Shown one piece after another: positions 9,844 through 50,669 of a stretch of DNA of 64,000 nt. The DNA is taken from assembly GCF_024502345.1 (NCBI RefSeq), contig NZ_JALDNN010000001.1. One strand, 5' to 3'. This DNA comes from Escherichia coli. Lineage in GTDB: Bacteria > Pseudomonadota > Gammaproteobacteria > Enterobacterales > Enterobacteriaceae. The notes beneath the pieces are model-generated. The model saw only the letters and a program-made list of their open reading frames with translations. It had not been told where the DNA came from and searched no databases. Position 1 is the first letter of the stretch, and the number at the start of each line of letters is the position of its first letter. The translations under genes were made by a program, and so were the position numbers.

Positions 9844-11018
9844 TTTGTGTGGTCCATAATATTTTTCATGGGAGGATAAATTGAGCCAGATGGAATGGCC
9901 CAGGGAGTGATTTTGCTTTCACCTACTAATATTCCCTTAGCTATTCGTGATTGCATGTTAGTAAAAACTTTATGATATGGTTCGTTTTCGATTAATACTA
10001 AATTTTCGAAATCATTAGTACCACCATCATCTAGAGATAGTTTATGGTGAACATTATAATTTAGAGGAGCATTGCCCTTTCTCATTCTTAAAAGGTCTTC
10101 GGCGTTGAATCTTCCAGATGCTTCGGAGGTTTTTGCAAGTTTGATAAGAAAATTTTTTCTTACAGTTTTATTAAACTCCTTTCGTAAGTTAGCTAAGTCT
10201 TTTGAAGGTCTCTTAATGTATATTATTTCTATTATGTCTATACCATCAAGAAGTTTTTGTTGACCTCTAAGTTTGCCTAAGTAACTATTTATTTCTGTAT
10301 ATGTATCAACATTAGAACGCTTTGTTAAAAGAATAGATGCTGTTGCTATCGCTATGCCCGCTGTTTTTTCATTTAGTATTTGATCATAGCCTTTTATTGC
10401 ATCTCCACCCAGTTTTTCCGCAGTATCTCTGAATCCTTCAATGTTCCCATTGTATACGCCACCAGCAGCAAGTAGCCTGCCAATAGCTTTGCTGTTTAAC
10501 GTTTTGAAACGATTATTTGTTTGGTTTTTTGAATTTGGTAAAAACAAACGGTTATAATTTTCAGGGAGTGCCAAATAGCTGAACTCGGTATTTGCGATAA
10601 GATGTTGACAGAGGATAAATTCATAACTAATAGTTATTGTTTCTGTATCCAGTTGGTTTTCAATGATCTGGTGATGAATAGCCGATAAAAAAGCGCCTCT
10701 TAGTTGTATATAATAATACTTTTCCAATCTACCAAATCTATTTATTCGATAGAAGTCAAATCCCATAAATAATTGTTCATTATTGTTAATGGAATTAATA
10801 AATAATGGAGTGCTTTTATCAATTAATTTACAAAATGTTATACCATGGAACTGTGAACCAAGCCCCGTATTATTAATATTATTTAAGAGTGAGAATGTAA
10901 ATATTTCATCCTCATGCCCGCTCTGCCAACGATTACCTGTAGACTCAGAAGTCCCACAACCTGCGGAGATGCTTCCTTGTTGTTCTCCCGTTACTGTCAG
11001 GTAAACAATATTACTCAT
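9840..11018 (-). CDS. yhhZ: Hcp-family protein with C-terminal HNH/colicin-DNase-like nuclease domain (Hcp-ET type polymorphic toxin, YhhZ)
   Basis: 392 aa. The N-terminal roughly 150 aa (MSNIVYLTVTGEQQGSISAGCGTSE...GHEDEI...) resemble Hcp/T6SS tube protein. The C-terminus carries NVHHKLSLDDGGTNDFENLVLIENEPYHK, matching the HH...GG...D..N...H pattern of colicin E9-type HNH DNases. Low G+C. Confidence 0.85.
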   Translation of the reverse strand: MSNIVYLTVTGEQQGSISAGCGTSESTGNRWQSGHEDEIFTFSLLNNINNTGLGSQFHGITFCKLIDKSTPLFINSINNNEQLFMGFDFYRINRFGRLEKYYYIQLRGAFLSAIHHQIIENQLDTETITISYEFILCQHLIANTEFSYLALPENYNRLFLPNSKNQTNNRFKTLNSKAIGRLLAAGGVYNGNIEGFRDTAEKLGGDAIKGYDQILNEKTAGIAIATASILLTKRSNVDTYTEINSYLGKLRGQQKLLDGIDIIEIIYIKRPSKDLANLRKEFNKTVRKNFLIKLAKTSEASGRFNAEDLLRMRKGNAPLNYNVHHKLSLDDGGTNDFENLVLIENEPYHKVFTNMQSRIAKGILVGESKITPWAIPSGSIYPPMKNIMDHTK

Positions 11019-11860: not shown

Positions 11861-11950
11861 GCGATCAGGAAGACCCTCGCGGAGAACCTGAAAGCACGAC
11901 ATTGCTCACATTGCTTCCAGTATTACTTAGCCAGCCGGGTGCTGGCTTTT
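11861..11950 (+). ncRNA. ryhB: RyhB small RNA (Fur-repressed, iron-sparing response)
   Basis: The 90 nt gcgatcaggaagaccctcgcggagaacctgaaagcacgacattgctcacattgcttccagtattacttagccagccgggtgctggctttt match RyhB as I recall it, ending in a Rho-independent terminator (gccagccgggtgctggc + T9). Lies between yhhY and yhhX as in K-12. Confidence 0.9.
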
Positions 11951-12071
11951 TTTTTGATCTTTCGTTCTCAATTTATCCACGGGAGTGCTTGTGTTCGTTA
12001 TGCGCACTCCAGTAGGAACCACGTCCGCTTTGCGCTAAGGTGTAAATAACCACCTTAAAAAGGACGAAATC

Positions 12072-13231: not shown

Positions 13232-13927
13232 ATGATCTACTTACGCAAAGCAAATGAACGTGGTCATGCAAATCATGGCTGGCTGGACTCCTGGCATACT
13301 TTCTCTTTTGCCAACTATTACGATCCGAACTTTATGGGCTTCTCCGCGCTGCGCGTGATTAACGACGACGTGATTGAAGCAGGGCAGGGCTTCGGCACTC
13401 ACCCGCATAAAGATATGGAAATTTTGACCTACGTGCTGGAAGGTACTGTTGAGCATCAGGACAGCATGGGCAATAAAGAGCAGGTTCCGGCGGGTGAGTT
13501 CCAGATTATGAGTGCGGGTACGGGTATTCGTCACTCAGAGTACAACCCAAACAGCACCGAGCGTCTGCATCTGTATCAGATCTGGATCATGCCTGAAGAA
13601 AATGGCATTACGCCGCGTTATGAACAGCGTCGCTTCGATGCCGTGCAGGGCAAACAGCTGGTGCTCTCGCCGGATGCGCGAGATGGTTCGCTGAAAGTGC
13701 ATCAGGATATGGAACTGTATCGTTGGGCGTTGCTGAAAGATGAGCAGTCGGTGCATCAGATTGCCGCTGAACGCCGCGTCTGGATCCAGGTGGTGAAAGG
13801 CAATGTCACCATTAACAGCGTGAAAGCCTCGACCAGCGATGGTCTGGCAATCTGGGATGAGCAGGCAATTTCCATCCATGCGGATAGCGACAGCGAAGTG
13901 TTACTGTTCGATCTGCCGCCGGTTTAA
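13232..13927 (+). CDS. yhhW: Pirin-like quercetin 2,3-dioxygenase YhhW
   Basis: 231-aa ORF with a cupin His motif (HPHKDMEILTYVLEG); synteny. Confidence 0.9.
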   Translation: MIYLRKANERGHANHGWLDSWHTFSFANYYDPNFMGFSALRVINDDVIEAGQGFGTHPHKDMEILTYVLEGTVEHQDSMGNKEQVPAGEFQIMSAGTGIRHSEYNPNSTERLHLYQIWIMPEENGITPRYEQRRFDAVQGKQLVLSPDARDGSLKVHQDMELYRWALLKDEQSVHQIAAERRVWIQVVKGNVTINSVKASTSDGLAIWDEQAISIHADSDSEVLLFDLPPV

Positions 13928-13944
13928 AGCTCCACGGCATTTTT

Positions 13945-13968
13945 GAAGCCTGCCTTTTTGCAGGCTTC
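13945..13968. terminator. Hairpin downstream of yhhW (possible terminator)
   Basis: Stem gaagcctgc / gcaggcttc with a T-rich loop; no clear U-tract after the stem on either strand. Confidence 0.35.
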
Positions 13969-14150
13969 CTCGCTCGCTCCGGTCGCGTGCTGATGCACGC
14001 TTCCGGGGTTTTGCCGCGTCGTTAGCACAATGCGATGCAATTGATTTAGTGTATATCTAATAATTGTAAACAAGCACTGTTTTCCCCGGGAAGGTTCTGA
14101 TGCGTCCGTGTTAAACTAAGAGAATCTATCTCTTTTGTACCTTCAGGACG

Positions 14151-15146
14151 ATGAAAAAGAAAAGACCCGTACTTCAGGATGTGGCTGACCGTGTAGGCGT
14201 GACCAAAATGACGGTCAGCCGTTTTTTACGCAACCCGGAGCAGGTTTCCGTCGCTCTACGCGGCAAGATTGCCGCCGCTCTTGATGAACTGGGCTATATT
14301 CCCAATCGTGCGCCCGATATCCTCTCTAACGCTACCAGCCGGGCGATTGGCGTCCTGTTACCTTCTCTCACCAACCAGGTTTTCGCGGAAGTATTACGCG
14401 GAATCGAAAGCGTCACCGACGCGCACGGTTATCAAACCATGCTGGCGCACTACGGTTATAAACCGGAAATGGAGCAAGAACGCCTCGAATCCATGCTCTC
14501 ATGGAATATCGATGGACTGATCCTCACCGAACGTACCCACACGCCGCGCACCTTAAAGATGATTGAAGTGGCGGGGATCCCGGTGGTGGAACTCATGGAC
14601 AGCCAGTCGCCGTGCCTCGATATCGCCGTCGGTTTTGATAACTTTGAAGCGGCACGCCAGATGACCACCGCCATTATTGCTCGCGGGCATTGCCACATTG
14701 CCTATCTCGGCGCGCGTCTCGACGAACGTACTATCATCAAACAGAAGGGATACGAACAGGCGATGCTGGATGCAGGTCTGGTGCCGTATAGCGTGATGGT
14801 TGAGCAATCTTCTTCTTACTCTTCCGGTATTGAACTGATTCGCCAGGCGCGGCGGGAATATCCGCAGCTGGATGGCGTGTTCTGTACCAACGATGACCTG
14901 GCGGTCGGCGCGGCGTTTGAATGTCAGCGTCTGGGATTGAAGGTTCCTGACGATATGGCGATTGCCGGTTTCCACGGTCATGACATTGGCCAGGTGATGG
15001 AGCCGCGGTTAGCGAGCGTGCTGACGCCGCGTGAGCGGATGGGCAGTATTGGCGCTGAACGCCTGCTGGCGCGTATTCGTGGCGAATCTGTGACACCGAA
15101 AATGTTAGATTTAGGTTTCACCTTGTCACCGGGCGGATCTATTTAA
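14151..15146 (+). CDS. gntR: Gluconate operon repressor (LacI family)
   Basis: 331-aa ORF with N-terminal HTH (LQDVADRVGVTKMTVSRFL); synteny with gntKU. Confidence 0.95.
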   Translation: MKKKRPVLQDVADRVGVTKMTVSRFLRNPEQVSVALRGKIAAALDELGYIPNRAPDILSNATSRAIGVLLPSLTNQVFAEVLRGIESVTDAHGYQTMLAHYGYKPEMEQERLESMLSWNIDGLILTERTHTPRTLKMIEVAGIPVVELMDSQSPCLDIAVGFDNFEAARQMTTAIIARGHCHIAYLGARLDERTIIKQKGYEQAMLDAGLVPYSVMVEQSSSYSSGIELIRQARREYPQLDGVFCTNDDLAVGAAFECQRLGLKVPDDMAIAGFHGHDIGQVMEPRLASVLTPRERMGSIGAERLLARIRGESVTPKMLDLGFTLSPGGSI

Positions 15147-15225
15147 GCCTACAAATTTGAAGTAGCTCACACTTATACACTTAAGGCACGGATGGATATT
15201 GCTTCTGATATTGTCCGGCTGGACA

Positions 15226-15254
15226 ATGTTACCGATAACAGTTACCCGTAACAT
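15226..15254 (+). promoter_or_regulatory. GntR operator palindrome upstream of gntK
   Basis: atgttaccgataacagttacccgtaacat is an inverted repeat (atgttac ... gtaacat) of the GntR operator type, about 30 bp upstream of the gntK start. Confidence 0.6.
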
Positions 15255-15284
15255 TTTTAATTCTTGTATTGTGGGGGCACCACT

Positions 15285-15812
15285 TTGAGCACGACTAACC
15301 ATGATCACCACATTTACGTCTTGATGGGCGTATCGGGCAGCGGCAAATCTGCGGTCGCCAGTGAAGTGGCGCATCAACTTCATGCCGCGTTTCTTGATGG
15401 CGATTTCCTCCATCCACGGCGCAATATCGAAAAAATGGCGTCTGGCGAACCGCTGAATGATGACGATCGCAAACCGTGGCTGCAGGCGCTGAACGACGCC
15501 GCGTTTGCTATGCAGCGCACCAATAAAGTGTCGCTGATCGTCTGTTCTGCACTGAAAAAGCACTATCGCGACTTGCTGCGTGAAGGTAATCCGAATCTCT
15601 CTTTCATCTACCTGAAAGGCGATTTTGATGTGATTGAAAGTCGCTTGAAAGCGCGCAAAGGCCATTTCTTTAAAACCCAAATGTTGGTGACGCAGTTTGA
15701 AACGCTGCAGGAGCCGGGTGCGGACGAAACCGATGTGCTGGTGGTGGATATCGATCAACCGCTGGAAGGTGTTGTGGCAAGCACCATTGAGGTTATTAAA
15801 AAAGGCAAATAA
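15285..15812 (+). CDS. gntK: Gluconokinase (thermoresistant), probable TTG start
   Basis: ORF track 15264..15812; recalled GntK starts MSTTNHDHHIYVLMGVSGSGKS, which corresponds to TTG at 15285 (175 aa). P-loop GVSGSGKS. Confidence 0.9.
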   Translation: MSTTNHDHHIYVLMGVSGSGKSAVASEVAHQLHAAFLDGDFLHPRRNIEKMASGEPLNDDDRKPWLQALNDAAFAMQRTNKVSLIVCSALKKHYRDLLREGNPNLSFIYLKGDFDVIESRLKARKGHFFKTQMLVTQFETLQEPGADETDVLVVDIDQPLEGVVASTIEVIKKGK

Positions 15813-15815
15813 GTA

Positions 15816-17156
15816 GTGACTACATTAACGCTTGTTTTAACAGCAGTAGGGTCTGTTTTACTGCTGCTGTTTTTAGTCATGAAGGCGCGTATGCACGCTT
15901 TCCTGGCTTTGATGGTGGTGTCCATGGGGGCTGGCCTTTTTTCCGGTATGCCGCTCGATAAAATCGCAGCGACGATGGAAAAAGGGATGGGAGGCACCCT
16001 CGGCTTCCTGGCGGTGGTTGTCGCCCTGGGAGCTATGTTTGGCAAGATCTTACATGAAACCGGCGCAGTCGATCAGATTGCCGTCAAAATGCTCAAATCC
16101 TTCGGTCACAGCCGCGCGCATTATGCCATCGGCCTTGCGGGGTTGGTCTGTGCGCTACCGCTGTTCTTTGAAGTGGCGATAGTTCTGCTGATTAGCGTTG
16201 CTTTCTCAATGGCGCGCCACACCGGTACGAACCTGGTGAAGCTGGTAATCCCATTATTCGCAGGCGTGGCGGCAGCGGCGGCGTTCCTGGTGCCAGGGCC
16301 AGCGCCAATGCTGCTGGCATCGCAGATGAACGCCGATTTTGGCTGGATGATCCTGATTGGCCTGTGTGCGGCAATTCCGGGAATGATTATTGCCGGGCCG
16401 CTGTGGGGTAATTTCATCAGCCGCTACGTGGAGTTGCATATTCCTGACGACATCAGCGAACCGCATCTCGGCGAAGGCAAAATGCCATCTTTCGGATTCA
16501 GCCTGTCGCTGATCCTGTTGCCGCTGGTGCTGGTGGGGCTGAAAACCATTGCCGCGCGTTTTGTGCCAGAAGGCTCTACCGCTTACGAATGGTTCGAGTT
16601 TATTGGTCATCCGTTTACCGCGATTCTGGTTGCTTGTCTGGTAGCGATTTATGGCCTGGCAATGCGTCAGGGCATGCCAAAAGACAAAGTGATGGAGATT
16701 TGCGGTCACGCGCTGCAACCGGCGGGGATCATTCTGCTGGTGATTGGTGCAGGCGGCGTGTTCAAACAGGTGCTGGTTGACTCTGGCGTAGGTCCGGCAC
16801 TGGGCGAAGCGTTAACTGGCATGGGCCTGCCGATTGCTATCACCTGCTTCGTGCTGGCAGCTGCAGTGCGCATCATTCAGGGTTCTGCCACCGTAGCCTG
16901 TTTAACGGCGGTAGGACTGGTGATGCCGGTTATTGAACAACTGAACTACTCCGGTGCGCAAATGGCGGCGCTGTCGATTTGTATCGCTGGTGGTTCGATT
17001 GTTGTCAGCCACGTTAACGACGCCGGTTTCTGGTTGTTCGGTAAATTTACCGGCGCGACCGAAGCCGAAACGCTGAAAACCTGGACCATGATGGAAACCA
17101 TCCTCGGCACTGTCGGTGCCATCGTTGGGATGATTGCGTTCCAGCTGTTGAGTTAA
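15816..17156 (+). CDS. gntU: Low-affinity gluconate transporter (GntP family), GTG start
   Basis: 446-aa polytopic ORF starting GTG at 15816, 4 nt after the gntK stop. Confidence 0.9.
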   Translation: MTTLTLVLTAVGSVLLLLFLVMKARMHAFLALMVVSMGAGLFSGMPLDKIAATMEKGMGGTLGFLAVVVALGAMFGKILHETGAVDQIAVKMLKSFGHSRAHYAIGLAGLVCALPLFFEVAIVLLISVAFSMARHTGTNLVKLVIPLFAGVAAAAAFLVPGPAPMLLASQMNADFGWMILIGLCAAIPGMIIAGPLWGNFISRYVELHIPDDISEPHLGEGKMPSFGFSLSLILLPLVLVGLKTIAARFVPEGSTAYEWFEFIGHPFTAILVACLVAIYGLAMRQGMPKDKVMEICGHALQPAGIILLVIGAGGVFKQVLVDSGVGPALGEALTGMGLPIAITCFVLAAAVRIIQGSATVACLTAVGLVMPVIEQLNYSGAQMAALSICIAGGSIVVSHVNDAGFWLFGKFTGATEAETLKTWTMMETILGTVGAIVGMIAFQLLS

Positions 17157-17165
17157 GTTTGTTCG

Positions 17166-17196
17166 CCCGGTAGTTGTGACACTACCGGGTTCTTTT
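17166..17196 (+). terminator. Rho-independent terminator after gntU
   Basis: Stem cccggtagt / actaccggg (17166-17174 and 17181-17189), 6-nt loop, then ttctttt. Confidence 0.65.
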
Positions 17197-17212
17197 CGAA
17201 AAACTCTCCTCG

Positions 17213-17806
17213 TTACCCCTTCATCCACATTCGAATGCCGTCGAGGAACATCTGGGTTGCCATCATCACCAGAATCAATCCCATCAGGCGTTCAAGTGCG
17301 TTCACCCCTTTCTCGCCCAGCAGACGTAAAAATAGCGAAGACTGTAGCAGGATGACAAAGGTGCCGCCCCAGGCCAGCAGCAGAGCAATCACCAGATGTC
17401 CCATCTGATTCGGGTACTGATGAGACAACAACATCAGCGTGGCGAGAATAGTCGGCCCGGCGACTAACGGAATTGCCAACGGCACGATAAATGGCTCTTC
17501 ACCTGCCGGAAGCCCGCTGCTATTTCCTGAAGCGCTGGGGAAAATCATCTTAATGGCGATTAGAAACAGAATGATGCCGCCAGAAATGGAGACGGTTTCT
17601 GCTCGCAGGCTGAGAAATGCCAGAATTTTCTCACCCGCAAACAGGAACACCAGCATCACCAGGAGAGCAATAAGCAACTCTCGCACCATGATTGCCCGCC
17701 GTCTTTTCGGTTCAGTATGTTTCAGTACGGACATGAAAATAGGCAGGTTTCCGAGCGGATCCATAATCAGGATCAATAAAACTGCTGCAGAAATGATTTC
17801 ATTCAT
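17213..17806 (-). CDS. yhgN: UPF0056/MarC-family inner membrane protein YhgN
   Basis: 197-aa hydrophobic ORF; synteny between gntU and asd. Confidence 0.9.
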   Translation of the reverse strand: MNEIISAAVLLILIMDPLGNLPIFMSVLKHTEPKRRRAIMVRELLIALLVMLVFLFAGEKILAFLSLRAETVSISGGIILFLIAIKMIFPSASGNSSGLPAGEEPFIVPLAIPLVAGPTILATLMLLSHQYPNQMGHLVIALLLAWGGTFVILLQSSLFLRLLGEKGVNALERLMGLILVMMATQMFLDGIRMWMKG

Positions 17807-49176: not shown

Positions 49177-50493
49177 TCAAATCACCATATTCAGCAGCAG
49201 ACAGCCTACCAGACCGCACACCGAGATAATGGTTTCCAGCATCGACCAGGATTTGATGGTCTCGCCGATAGTCAGGTTAAAGTACTCTTTGAACAGCCAG
49301 AAGCCTGGATCGTTCACATGAGAGAAAATCACACTACCGGAACCAACCGCAATAACCATTAGCTCCGGGCTAACACCCGTCGTTGCAATCAGCGGTGCCG
49401 CGATACCACCCGCAGTGATTGCCGCAACGGTTGCGGAACCCAGCGCGATACGCAGTACGGCAGCAATCGACCAGGCCATCAGCAGCGGAGAAATGTTGGT
49501 TTCGTGCATCATGGAAGCAATGTATTTGTCCACGCCGCTGTCTACCAGCACCTGCTTGAACGCACCGCCACCACCGATGATCAACAGCATCATCGCAATG
49601 ATTTTGATGGAAGAAACCAGCGTGTCGTTAATCTGATCCATTGAACGACCACGGTTTAGACCAAAGGTGAACATCGCAATCAGCACGGCAATCAGCGTAG
49701 CCATTACCGGGTCACCGAGGAACTCCGCTACCGGCAGGAAAGCGTGACCTTTCGGCAGGATCATTTCGGCAATCGCACGCATCGCCATCAGTACTACCGG
49801 CACCAGAGAGGTCCAGACGCTGACGCCAAAGCTCGGCATCTCTTCTTCGCTGAAGGTTTTCGCGCTGTAGAGACCTTCCGGAATTGGCTTATCGATACCT
49901 TTCAACACGCGAGCGTAAACCGGACCGGCGAGAATCACGGTCGGGATTGCCAGAATAGTACCGTACAGCAGGGTTTTACCCATGTCGGCATTGAAAATGG
50001 TGGCAATCGCAGTCGGACCCGGATGCGGTGGCAGGAAGCCGTGGGTCACAGACAGTGCAGCTGCCATTGGTACACCAACATACAGCAGTGGAATATTCGC
50101 AGAAGCCGCGATGGTAAACACCAGCGGCAGCATCAGCACAAAGCCCACTTCATAGAACAGGGCAAAACCAACGGTAAAACCGGTCAGTACCACCGCCCAC
50201 TGGATGTGTTTTTTACCAAATTTGGCAATCAGCGTGGTGGCGATACGTTGTGCGCCACCGCAGTCTGCCAGCATTTTGCCCAGCATTGCGCCAAAACCCA
50301 TGATCAGGGCAAGGCTACCGAGCGTCCCGCCGACACCGGCTTTGATGGAGCCAATAACTTTATCCAGCGGCATTCCTTGCATTAATCCAACAGCAAGCGC
50401 CACGAGGACGAGAGCGATGAAGCCGTTCATTTTGAAGCGGATCATCAGGAGTAATAACAAGATTACACCGATAGCAACAATGACTAATGGCAT
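49177..50493 (-). CDS. gntT: High-affinity gluconate transporter (GntP family)
   Basis: 438-aa polytopic ORF; paralogous to gntU in this window. Confidence 0.95.
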   Translation of the reverse strand: MPLVIVAIGVILLLLLMIRFKMNGFIALVLVALAVGLMQGMPLDKVIGSIKAGVGGTLGSLALIMGFGAMLGKMLADCGGAQRIATTLIAKFGKKHIQWAVVLTGFTVGFALFYEVGFVLMLPLVFTIAASANIPLLYVGVPMAAALSVTHGFLPPHPGPTAIATIFNADMGKTLLYGTILAIPTVILAGPVYARVLKGIDKPIPEGLYSAKTFSEEEMPSFGVSVWTSLVPVVLMAMRAIAEMILPKGHAFLPVAEFLGDPVMATLIAVLIAMFTFGLNRGRSMDQINDTLVSSIKIIAMMLLIIGGGGAFKQVLVDSGVDKYIASMMHETNISPLLMAWSIAAVLRIALGSATVAAITAGGIAAPLIATTGVSPELMVIAVGSGSVIFSHVNDPGFWLFKEYFNLTIGETIKSWSMLETIISVCGLVGCLLLNMVI

Positions 50494-50513
50494 GATTTAC
50501 CTGGCCTTTCATT

Positions 50514-50669
50514 TGTTATGGGTAACGTCAATTTTCTGACGACAAGCTCTAATTATCCCAATCGGGAACAGAGATATTGCGGCACCACGACTGATACCCA
50601 CTAAAACTAATTATTGTAGTCAGATGTCAGGAGTATGTTTGGTACCCATGTGAATGATACGGGTAACAT
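50514..50669 (-). promoter_or_regulatory. gntT promoter region with two GntR-operator-like sites
   Basis: tgttatgggtaacgtca (50514-50530) and atgatacgggtaacat (50654-50669) both contain the gttacccgtaac-type core seen in the gntK operator. Confidence 0.4.

What the first reader, a model, noticed from the sequence alone, without database searches (positions are those of the whole stretch)
15226..15287. GntR operator palindrome and probable TTG start codon of gntK
A near-perfect inverted repeat atgttaccgataacagttacccgtaacat sits about 30 bp upstream of gntK. The recalled GntK N-terminus (MSTTNHD…) corresponds to a TTG codon at 15285 rather than an ATG. gntU starts with GTG four nucleotides after the gntK stop.
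Basis: partly seen in the sequence, partly recalled or inferred. Interest (0 to 1): 0.2.

Follow-up and report, generated by a model that had tools for sequence, protein, structure and literature searches.

The report
Known GntR operator, gntK TTG start

Summary
The sequence atgttaccgataacagttacccgtaacat lies at 15226-15254, with arms 12/14 complementary. It ends 30 nt before a TTG at 15285 that opens a 175-aa GntK identical to PDB 1KNQ. gntU opens with GTG at 15816, three nt after the gntK TAA.

The 29-mer is two 16-bp GntR operators of type ATGTTA-N4-TAACAT, at 15226-15241 and 15239-15254. Their centres are 13 bp apart and they share 3 bp. GntR is a LacI-family repressor. The operators cover the inferred -10 hexamer and transcription start of a promoter with an upstream CRP site.

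A palindrome of this quality is expected about once per 64 kb by chance. What makes it real is:
- the motif match;
- two more operators at gntT in the same window;
- near-invariance in 80 of 80 Enterobacteriaceae species while the flanks drift.

The start position is supported by four points:
- TTG in 77 species and ATG in 3;
- a G-rich Shine-Dalgarno 5-7 nt upstream in all;
- codon periodicity that begins right after the TTG;
- RefSeq annotation.

gntU uses GTG or TTG in every species, never ATG.

All of this is published and annotated. The only open point is how two dimers use sites 13 bp apart.

The parts
14151..15146 (+). gntR, the LacI-family gluconate repressor (331 aa)
   Evidence: ORF. 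Pfam finds a LacI HTH (PF00356, 7e-19) and Peripla_BP_1 (1.6e-31). RefSeq names it gntR.
15153..15174 (+). CRP-binding site aaaTTTGAagtagcTCACActt (core 15156-15171)
   Evidence: It is the only match with at most 1 mismatch to TGTGA-N6-TCACA in the window. It is identical to the gntKU CRP site in Table 2 of PMC2395238, scored at 13.1 bits. The block is conserved across species.
15199..15204 (+). Inferred -35 hexamer TTGCTT
   Evidence: A conserved block ATTGCTTCT sits 17 nt upstream of GACAAT in the operator-anchored comparison of 80 sequences. Promoter function is inferred. The consensus scanner missed it because it matches only 3 of 6 positions.
15222..15227 (+). Inferred -10 hexamer GACAAT, overlapping operator 1 by 2 nt. 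The transcription start is inferred near 15234-15235.
   Evidence: GACAAT is strongly conserved, while the spacer before it is variable. A start at 15235 would put the CRP centre (15163.5) at -71.5. The start site is inferred and was not measured.
15226..15241 (+). GntR operator 1, ATGTTACCGATAACAG (1 mismatch to ATGTTA-N4-TAACAT, central CpG)
   Evidence: Motif hit. It is the exact 16-mer used as a gluconate-responsive GntR site in PMC10450161. It is nearly invariant in 80 species.
15239..15254 (+). GntR operator 2, CAGTTACCCGTAACAT (2 mismatches), sharing 3 bp with operator 1; centres 13 bp apart
   Evidence: Motif hit. Direct repeat D1 with spacing 13. It is nearly invariant in 80 species. 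PMC4052901 describes 13-bp overlapping GntR sites at gntKU.
15272..15277 (+). Shine-Dalgarno-like UGGGGG, 7 nt before the TTG
   Evidence: A G-rich sequence complementary to the anti-SD lies 5-7 nt upstream of the start in 80 of 80 species. The initiation region is not structured (z +1.19).
15285..15812 (+). gntK CDS, TTG start, 175 aa, TAA stop
   Evidence: 100% identical to PDB 1KNQ_A over residues 1-175. RefSeq gives the same coordinates. TTG in 77 and ATG in 3 of 80 species. Codon periodicity begins at codon 2.
15816..17156 (+). gntU CDS, GTG start, 446 aa
   Evidence: It is the first start codon after the in-frame TAA, which is the gntK stop. The Pfam GntP_permease profile aligns from residue 5. 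RefSeq gives the same start. GTG in 61 and TTG in 19 of 80 species, never ATG.
15839..15875 (+). Hairpin plus T-run inside gntU codons 8-20; a candidate intragenic attenuator
   Evidence: Terminator-like hit. Minimum free energy -16.4 kcal/mol, z -4.43. Kept in most of 79 sequences, with a mean of -15.8 kcal/mol. Pairing is 92.9% but without compensatory changes.
17165..17200 (+). Intrinsic terminator-like hairpin after gntU
   Evidence: 10 pairs, 6 of them G-C, followed by TCTTTTCG.

Best explanation
The window carries the E. coli GntI gluconate locus gntR-gntK-gntU. The 29-bp element at 15226-15254 is a composite of two overlapping 16-bp operators for the LacI-family repressor GntR. Their centres are 13 bp apart and they share 3 bp.

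The operators lie over the end of the -10 hexamer (GACAAT, 15222-15227), over the inferred transcription start (about 15234/5), and over the first 20 nt or so of the leader. The promoter is weak and has a CRP site centred about 71 bp upstream.

Without gluconate, GntR occupies the element and blocks RNA polymerase. Gluconate releases GntR, and cAMP-CRP then activates transcription.

gntK is translated from the TTG at 15285, which is preceded by a G-rich Shine-Dalgarno sequence. gntU is translated from the GTG at 15816, three nt after the gntK stop, probably by translational coupling.

Shown here: sequence identity, motif matches, conservation, annotation and the coding signal. Taken from the literature: GntR binding to and repression of this promoter. 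Inferred: the exact transcription start, steric occlusion of RNA polymerase, and translational coupling.
For: Locus identity:
- The region is 99.9% identical to E. coli chromosomes, annotated gntR/gntK/gntU.
- The regulatory region is identical to K-12 from the CRP site through the TTG apart from one substitution between the CRP site and the -35 hexamer.
- GntR is a LacI-family protein.

Operators:
- There are two motif hits at 15226-41 and 15239-54 and a direct repeat with spacing 13.
- Single 16-bp operators of the same type lie at gntT in this window (50654-69 and 50513-28) and at K-12 edd and idnD/idnK.
- The gntT site ATGTTACCCGTATCAT supports GntR repression in a purified system.
- The 16-mer ATGTTACCGATAACAG works as a gluconate-responsive GntR site on its own, and a 2-bp insertion at its centre abolishes the response (PMC10450161).
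- Overlapping 13-bp GntR sites at gntKU are reported as functional (PMC4052901).
- PgntK is repressed more than 5-fold by GntR and is the tightest of three GntR-controlled promoters (PMC13386637).
- The element is present in 80 of 80 species. Only position 15 (A or T, never G or C) and position 29 vary appreciably, while the distance to the start codon ranges from 16 to 85 nt.
- Within E. coli, variants fall in the promoter spacer and the leader, not in the operators, the -10 hexamer, the Shine-Dalgarno sequence or the TTG.

Start codons:
- Minor-allele fractions by codon position are 0.022/0.010/0.227 just after the TTG, against 0.48/0.40/0.35 upstream.
- 36 of 80 species have no other in-frame start upstream.

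CRP site.
Against: - No footprint, transcription-start or N-terminal protein data could be read here. The primary papers (Tong 1996, Izu 1997, Peekhaus 1998, Tsunedomi 2003) are not held.
- gntK is absent from the two genome-wide datasets checked.
- The palindrome is not statistically unusual on its own.
- The promoter hexamers are weak and were missed by the consensus scan.
- The PDB chain shows what was cloned, not the native N-terminus.
- How two LacI-type dimers could occupy sites 13 bp apart at the same time is unresolved.
Confidence: 0.93

Rival explanations
1. The 29-bp element is one long palindromic operator recognised as a single unit, for example by a tetramer that contacts only the two outer half-sites. 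On this view it is not two separable 16-bp operators.
For: - The element has overall dyad symmetry about position 15.
- The two outer half-sites, ATGTTACC and its complement ATGTTACG, are the best matches to the consensus. The two inner half-sites are degenerate (read from the sequence).
- The whole 29-mer is conserved as a block.
- PMC4052901 notes that canonical dimers 13 bp apart should not be able to interact.
Against: - The 16-mer alone gives gluconate-responsive GntR binding.
- All other GntR sites checked (gntT, edd, idnD/idnK) are single 16-mers.
- The two internal mismatches of the long palindrome (positions 8/22 and 10/20) are essentially fixed across the 80 species (at most one departure per column), so they are not decay of a once-perfect palindrome.
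- The outermost pair is broken in 74 of 80 species, where position 29 is A or C.
- Position 15 is only ever A or T, which are the bases favoured by operator 1 and operator 2 respectively.
Confidence: 0.05
2. The inverted repeat acts as a nucleic-acid hairpin: either a terminator for gntR read-through transcripts or a leader structure. On this view it is not a protein-binding site.
For: In this window the repeat is followed by TTTTTAATT, and it lies downstream of the gntR stop codon.
Against: - Folded as RNA it gives -5.5 kcal/mol, z -0.16, and 80 of 200 shuffles fold at least as well.
- The terminator scan does not report it.
- The T-run is absent in most other species, which have AATTCAC or AATTGAC there.
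- The inferred gntKU transcription start lies inside the repeat, so the main transcript lacks the left arm.
Confidence: 0.01
3. GntK translation starts elsewhere: at the upstream in-frame TTG 15264, giving MYCGGTTL..., or at the first in-frame ATG, Met14 at 15324.
For: - ORF listing opens the ORF at 15264.
- The position '-171' given for the gntKU CRP site in PMC2395238 equals the distance from the site's first base (15153) to the Met14 ATG at 15324. This suggests an older annotation used that ATG (this is arithmetic inference only).
Against: - Only 14 of 80 species have a start codon at -21, and 36 of 80 have no upstream in-frame start at all.
- There is no codon periodicity upstream of 15285, and that region has indels that are not multiples of three.
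- There is no Shine-Dalgarno sequence before 15264.
- Residues 2-13 are conserved as coding sequence with third-position variation.
- Met14 sits directly before the P-loop GVSGSGKS, so starting there would remove the segment HHIYVL that precedes it.
- RefSeq and the PDB entry use 15285.
Confidence: 0.03

Closest known systems
E. coli K-12 gntKU promoter-operator region (gntR b3438, gntK b3437, gntU b4476)
   Same: The sequence is identical from the CRP site through the TTG start codon apart from one substitution between the CRP site and the -35 hexamer. The same CDS starts are annotated. GntK is identical to PDB 1KNQ.
   Different: There is no functional difference. The window comes from a different E. 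coli lineage: the 801-nt query is 99.9% identical to strains such as 2014C-4423 and 95-99% identical to most genomes.
GntR operators of gntT (in this window), edd and idnD/idnK
   Same: They share the 16-bp ATGTTA-N4-TAACAT unit and the same repressor. The gntT sites are ATGTTACCCGTATCAT and ACGTTACCCATAACAA. The edd sites are ATTTTACCGGTAACAT and TTGTTACGCGTAACAA, and the idn site is ATGTTACGCATAACGT.
   Different: Those promoters carry single operators. At gntT they are 141 bp apart and at edd 222 bp apart. Of the promoters checked, only gntKU has two complete operators fused at 13-bp spacing.
Overlapping 13-bp tandem sites of LacI-family regulators (Ravcheev et al. 2014, PMC4052901)
   Same: gntKU is that paper's cited functional example. 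The paper reports that the arrangement is conserved in more than half of the GntR-regulated operons in gamma-proteobacteria. This report confirms it in 80 of 80 Enterobacteriaceae species.
   Different: Nothing differs. The binding mode was left unresolved in that paper and remains unresolved here.
lac and gal-type repression with CRP class I activation
   Same: A LacI-family repressor sits over the core promoter and transcription start, with an upstream CRP site.
   Different: There are two overlapping primary operators instead of one primary operator plus distant auxiliary operators joined by looping. Only a weak 3-mismatch candidate for an auxiliary site was found nearby, at 15102-15117.

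Membership tests
GntR (LacI/GalR-family) operator | A 16-bp dyad matching ATGTTA-N4-TAACAT | tested here: met
   15226-15241 has 1 mismatch and 15239-15254 has 2 mismatches.
GntR (LacI/GalR-family) operator | A cognate LacI-family repressor gene is present | tested here: met
   gntR at 14151-15146 carries PF00356 and PF00532.
GntR (LacI/GalR-family) operator | The site is conserved in orthologous promoters while the flanks diverge | tested here: met
   The element is present in 80 of 80 species. In 26 of its 29 columns at least 79 of 80 species agree. The distance to the start codon ranges from 16 to 85 nt.
GntR (LacI/GalR-family) operator | Direct, gluconate-sensitive binding by GntR | not testable with these tools
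   Literature only. The 16-mer works with GntR fusion proteins (PMC10450161). PgntK is repressed by GntR (PMC13386637). PMC4052901 cites Tsunedomi 2003. The primary footprinting papers are not held.
GntR (LacI/GalR-family) operator | The site overlaps the core promoter or the transcription start | tested here: inconclusive
   It overlaps the conserved GACAAT by 2 nt. The transcription start is inferred from geometry, and no start-site data were found.
Non-ATG (TTG) translation start | An in-frame stop lies upstream and no other conserved start codon is available | tested here: met
   TAA lies at 15258. 36 of 80 species have no alternative in-frame start upstream.
Non-ATG (TTG) translation start | A Shine-Dalgarno sequence at proper spacing | tested here: met
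   UGGGGG lies 7 nt upstream. A G-rich Shine-Dalgarno-like sequence lies 5-7 nt upstream in 80 of 80 species.
Non-ATG (TTG) translation start | The coding signature begins at this codon, and orthologs carry a start codon at the same position | tested here: met
   Codon periodicity is 0.022/0.010/0.227 after the TTG, against none upstream. The position holds TTG in 77 species and ATG in 3.
Non-ATG (TTG) translation start | The native protein N-terminus has been determined | not testable with these tools
   The PDB chain 1KNQ_A starts MSTTNHD, but it is recombinant. gntK is absent from the tetracycline ribosome-profiling (TetRP) supplement.
Translationally coupled gene pair (gntK-gntU) | The upstream stop and downstream start codons overlap or lie within a few nt, and this is conserved | tested here: met
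   The junction is +3 here. In 78 scored species it is -4 (22), -1 (27), +3 (25), +12 (3) or +14 (1).
Translationally coupled gene pair (gntK-gntU) | Downstream translation depends on upstream translation | not testable with these tools
   This needs a gntK nonsense-mutant reporter experiment.
Class I CRP-dependent promoter | A CRP consensus site centred near -61.5 or -71.5 | tested here: inconclusive
   The site has 1 core mismatch and scores 13.1 bits in PMC2395238. Its centre at 15163.5 corresponds to -70.5 or -71.5 only if the transcription start is 15234 or 15235, which is inferred.
Intrinsic terminator or RNA hairpin (as a reading of the palindrome) | A stable stem-loop beyond shuffled controls, followed by a conserved U-run | tested here: not met
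   z -0.16. It is not found by the terminator scan. The T-run is not conserved.

The most novel reading that the evidence does not exclude
The 29-bp element may be an obligate, dyad-symmetric composite: strong outer half-sites, weak inner half-sites, 13-bp centre spacing and a 3-bp overlap. This geometry does not fit canonical side-by-side binding of two LacI-type dimers.

Its near-invariance in 80 species fits that reading. So does the single tolerated A/T switch at the one base where the two operators have opposite preferences. Both would be consistent with a non-canonical binding mode, such as two dimers on different faces of the helix with local DNA distortion, or strictly alternating occupancy. 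That mode has not been resolved structurally.

The arrangement itself is already published. Only the binding mechanism would be new.
Probability: 0.2. Interest if true: 0.4.

Novelty: already known. Interest (0 to 1): 0.1.

Why it matters
It matters little as a discovery. The operator, the CRP site and both non-ATG start codons are already in the literature and in RefSeq annotation, so the finding mainly shows that the first-stage reader recognised the locus correctly.

Three side results have modest value:
- A family-wide view shows that the overlapping double operator, the weak start codons of both genes (gntK TTG, gntU GTG or TTG, never ATG for gntU) and a hairpin inside gntU are all conserved. 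That suggests several layers of control holding down kinase and permease levels.
- The gntKU element is a clean natural test case for the unsolved question of how LacI-family dimers use sites 13 bp apart.
- PgntK is in current use as a tight synthetic-biology switch, so knowing which bases are invariant is practically useful.

Tried and rejected
- Primary papers. I tried to read Tsunedomi 2003 (PMC150117), Tong 1996 (PMC178079) and Peekhaus & Conway 1998 (PMC107090). None is held. Statements about footprints, primer extension and attenuation in those papers therefore rest on secondary citations or on my memory, and are marked as such.
- Initiation-site evidence. The tetracycline ribosome-profiling supplement (PMC4909307) has no gntK or gntU entry. 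This is expected for a repressed operon.
- Transcription-start evidence. The Cappable-seq supplement (PMC4782308) has no coordinates near the predicted start. Searches for 'gntK promoter' returned only papers on Corynebacterium and other organisms.
- RNA hairpin or terminator reading of the palindrome. Rejected (z -0.16).
- Chance palindrome. The palindrome statistic alone cannot reject chance (0.96 expected). Chance is rejected on conservation and motif grounds.
- Auxiliary looping operator near gntKU. Only a 3-mismatch candidate was found, inside the 3' end of gntR at 15102-15117. I treat it as chance.
- Covariation in the gntU hairpin. Pairs are 92.9% maintained but show no two-sided changes, and the shuffles are indistinguishable from the observed value. 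Support for the hairpin is therefore thermodynamic and from conservation only.
- Rfam scan of the whole window. It found only RyhB.

Full report
**What is there**

Reading 13900-17400 and listing ORFs shows three co-oriented genes on the + strand:
- a 331-aa ORF at 14151-15146;
- a kinase ORF ending at 15812;
- a 446-aa ORF at 15816-17156.

Megablast against 5,426 complete E. coli genomes finds the region in 5,424 of them. It is always chromosomal and is annotated gntR, gntK and gntU. RefSeq annotation of the closest strain and of K-12 MG1655 places the gntK start at the position equal to window 15285 (528-nt CDS, 175 aa). It places the gntU start at 15816, with a 3-nt gap between the genes. 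The regulatory region from the CRP site through the first gntK codons is identical to K-12 apart from one substitution between the CRP site and the -35 hexamer.

Pfam confirms the three proteins:
- the first is a LacI-family regulator (LacI HTH plus Peripla_BP_1), not a member of the 'GntR family' named after the B. subtilis protein;
- the second is a P-loop kinase;
- the third is a GntP permease aligned from residue 5.

**Checking the observation**

The quoted 29-mer lies at 15226-15254. The repeat finder gives 15-nt arms that are 87% complementary, with 1 nt between them. The element ends 30 nt before the TTG at 15285-15287, and translation from that TTG reads MSTTNHDHH. The gntK stop is TAA at 15810-15812. 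'gta' follows, and then GTG at 15816. All coordinates and descriptions in the finding are correct.

**Is it more than chance?**

As a palindrome, it is not. A scan of the whole window for inverted repeats of this quality finds this one alone, and Markov-shuffled windows give 0.96 on average.

As a motif match, it is. ATGTTA-N4-TAACAT with up to 2 mismatches gives 7 hits against 1.79 expected, and none of 100 shuffles reached 7. Two of the hits are the overlapping pair at 15226-41 and 15239-54. Two more are at 50654-69 and 50513-28, upstream of a 438-aa minus-strand ORF at 49177-50493 that is gntT.

The strongest argument is comparative. I retrieved 80 species-level loci across Enterobacteriaceae with GntK at least 90% identical. 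The 29-mer is present in all 80, and in 26 of its 29 columns at least 79 of 80 species agree. The sequence between it and the start codon changes in both length (16-85 nt) and content, and the promoter spacer upstream is also variable. Within E. coli, 3,873 of 5,424 genomes are identical over 15199-15290. The sampled variants change only the spacer and the leader, including a 1-nt insertion.

**Anatomy: two operators, not one**

The repeat finder also reports a direct repeat, GTTACCGATAACA / GTTACCCGTAACA, with spacing 13. The element is therefore two 16-bp dyads:
- ATGTTACCGATAACAG at 15226-41;
- CAGTTACCCGTAACAT at 15239-54.

They share 3 bp. The overall symmetry follows from placing two palindromic units head to tail.

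Four points favour this reading:
- Every other GntR site examined is a single 16-mer: two at gntT, two at K-12 edd and one at idnD/idnK.
- The left 16-mer alone works as a gluconate-responsive GntR site in a heterologous system, and a 2-bp central insertion kills it (PMC10450161). The gntT 16-mer supports GntR repression in a purified system.
- The two mismatches of the long palindrome are essentially fixed across the 80 species (at most one departure per column), and the outermost pair is broken in 74 of 80 species.
- The only freely varying internal base, position 15, is A in 48 species and T in 32, never G or C. A is the consensus base for the end of operator 1 (TAACAt). T is the consensus base for the start of operator 2 (aTGTTA).

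Ravcheev et al. 2014 describe exactly this. They report overlapping LacI-family sites about 13 bp apart, with gntKU as the experimentally supported example. They say the arrangement is conserved in more than half of GntR-regulated operons in gamma-proteobacteria. They also state that the binding mode is hard to reconcile with known structures (PMC4052901).

**Promoter context**

Anchoring 80 sequences (the window plus 79 of the species loci) on the operator shows conserved blocks upstream:
- aaaTTTGAagtagcTCACActt at 15153-15174. This is the only match with at most 1 mismatch to the CRP core in the window. It is identical to the gntKU CRP site listed at 13.1 bits in PMC2395238.
- ATTGCTTCT, containing the inferred -35 hexamer TTGCTT at 15199-15204.
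- A variable 17-nt spacer.
- GACAAT at 15222-15227, the inferred -10 hexamer.

The hexamers are weak (3 of 6 and 4 of 6 matches), so the consensus scanner missed them. Weak hexamers fit a CRP-dependent promoter.

The transcription start is inferred at 15234-15235. That puts the CRP centre at -70.5 or -71.5, operator 1 over the start, and operator 2 at about +5 to +20.

Reporter work shows that PgntK is repressed by GntR and is the least leaky of PgntK, PgntT and PidnK (PMC13386637).

Folded as RNA, the palindrome is no more stable than shuffles (-5.5 kcal/mol, z -0.16). A hairpin or terminator role is therefore rejected.

**The TTG start**

Seven lines of evidence agree:
- TAA at 15258 closes the frame 27 nt upstream. 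The only other upstream candidate is TTG 15264. It has no Shine-Dalgarno sequence, and only 14 of 80 species have a start codon at that position. 36 of 80 species have no alternative start at all.
- A G-rich Shine-Dalgarno-like sequence lies 5-7 nt upstream in all 80 species.
- The homologous codon is TTG in 77 species and ATG in 3: Yokenella, Trabulsiella and Buttiauxella.
- Minor-allele fractions by codon position are 0.022/0.010/0.227 for codons 2-21. For the 21 nt upstream they are 0.48/0.40/0.35. Coding constraint therefore begins exactly here.
- The first in-frame ATG is Met14, directly before the P-loop GVSGSGKS.
- The PDB chain 1KNQ_A is the identical 175-aa protein, and RefSeq uses this start.
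- The initiation region is unstructured (z +1.19).

One detail points to an earlier annotation. The '-171' given for the CRP site in PMC2395238 equals the distance to Met14. The current K-12 protein record is version NP_417894.2. Together these suggest that an earlier annotation used the ATG. This is my inference.

I recall that the N-terminus of GntK was sequenced (Izu et al. 1996). I could not verify that here.

**The gntU start**

GTG 15816 is the first start codon after the in-frame TAA that ends gntK. The next in-frame ATG is codon 22 of gntU, and starting there would remove most of the N-terminal segment that the GntP_permease profile covers from residue 5. Across species the start is GTG in 61 and TTG in 19, never ATG. 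Among the 78 scored junctions, the stop-to-start distance is -4 (GTGA) in 22, -1 (TAGTG) in 27, +3 in 25 and +12 to +14 in 4. That geometry fits translational coupling, which is inferred and not tested.

**Verdict**

Observation confirmed. Interpretation supported, with the refinement that the palindrome is a pair of overlapping operators. Everything substantive is already published or annotated, so interest is low. The remaining open point is how GntR dimers occupy two sites 13 bp apart. That question is acknowledged in the literature and cannot be settled with sequence tools.

Noticed in passing
window 15839-15875 (+), inside gntU codons 8-20: A stable hairpin followed by a T-run (ACAGCAGTAG...CTGCTGCTGTTTTTAG; -16.4 kcal/mol, z -4.43) lies 23 nt into gntU. 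It is kept in most of 79 Enterobacteriaceae sequences. It is lost in the two Salmonella loci (L010, L011), which also lose the T-run, and its stem is disrupted in Kosakonia cowanii (L078). Pairs are 92.9% maintained, through wobble changes only, and there are no compensatory changes. It looks like an intragenic attenuator that lowers gntU relative to gntK. I recall such an attenuator being described in the 1996-97 papers, but I could not read them.
   Followed up: partly
window 50513-50528 and 50654-50669 (gntT promoter; gntT CDS 49177-50493, minus strand): Two single GntR operators lie upstream of gntT, 141 bp apart centre to centre. Read on the minus strand they are ATGTTACCCGTATCAT and ACGTTACCCATAACAA. 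The first is the exact operator used in a cell-free gluconate biosensor. Neither has a partner site 13 bp away.
   Followed up: partly
window 11890-11954 (+): The RyhB small RNA lies just upstream of yhhX (Rfam RF00057, 83.1 bits, E 3.6e-14). It was the only Rfam hit in the window.
   Followed up: no
window 15816 and the homologous position in loci L003-L082: Both genes of the operon keep weak start codons across the family. gntK has TTG in 77 of 80 species. gntU has GTG in 61 and TTG in 19, the latter mainly in Enterobacter, Leclercia and Lelliottia, and never ATG. This suggests selection for low translation of both genes.
   Followed up: partly
window 13803-13818 (+), inside the 3' end of yhhW, about 330 bp upstream of gntR: ATGTCACCATTAACAG matches the GntR motif with 2 mismatches. 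It lies in coding sequence and is probably chance. Two other 2-mismatch hits, at 9955 and 35202, also look like chance.
   Followed up: no
window 15102-15117 (+), inside the 3' end of gntR: ATGTTAGATTTAGGTT is a weak 3-mismatch motif match, 124 bp upstream of operator 1. It could be an auxiliary operator but is more likely chance.
   Followed up: no
L087 5494-5522 (K-12 idnD-idnK intergenic region): The single idn operator ATGTTACGCATAACGT is preceded, exactly 13 bp upstream, by a lone half-site TTGTTAC. This echoes the 13-bp register seen at gntKU.
   Followed up: no
window 15153 relative to 15324: The position '-171' quoted for the gntKU CRP site in PMC2395238 equals the distance from the site's first base (15153) to the Met14 ATG. 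This implies that an older gntK annotation started at the ATG, and it fits the version bump in NP_417894.2.
   Followed up: partly
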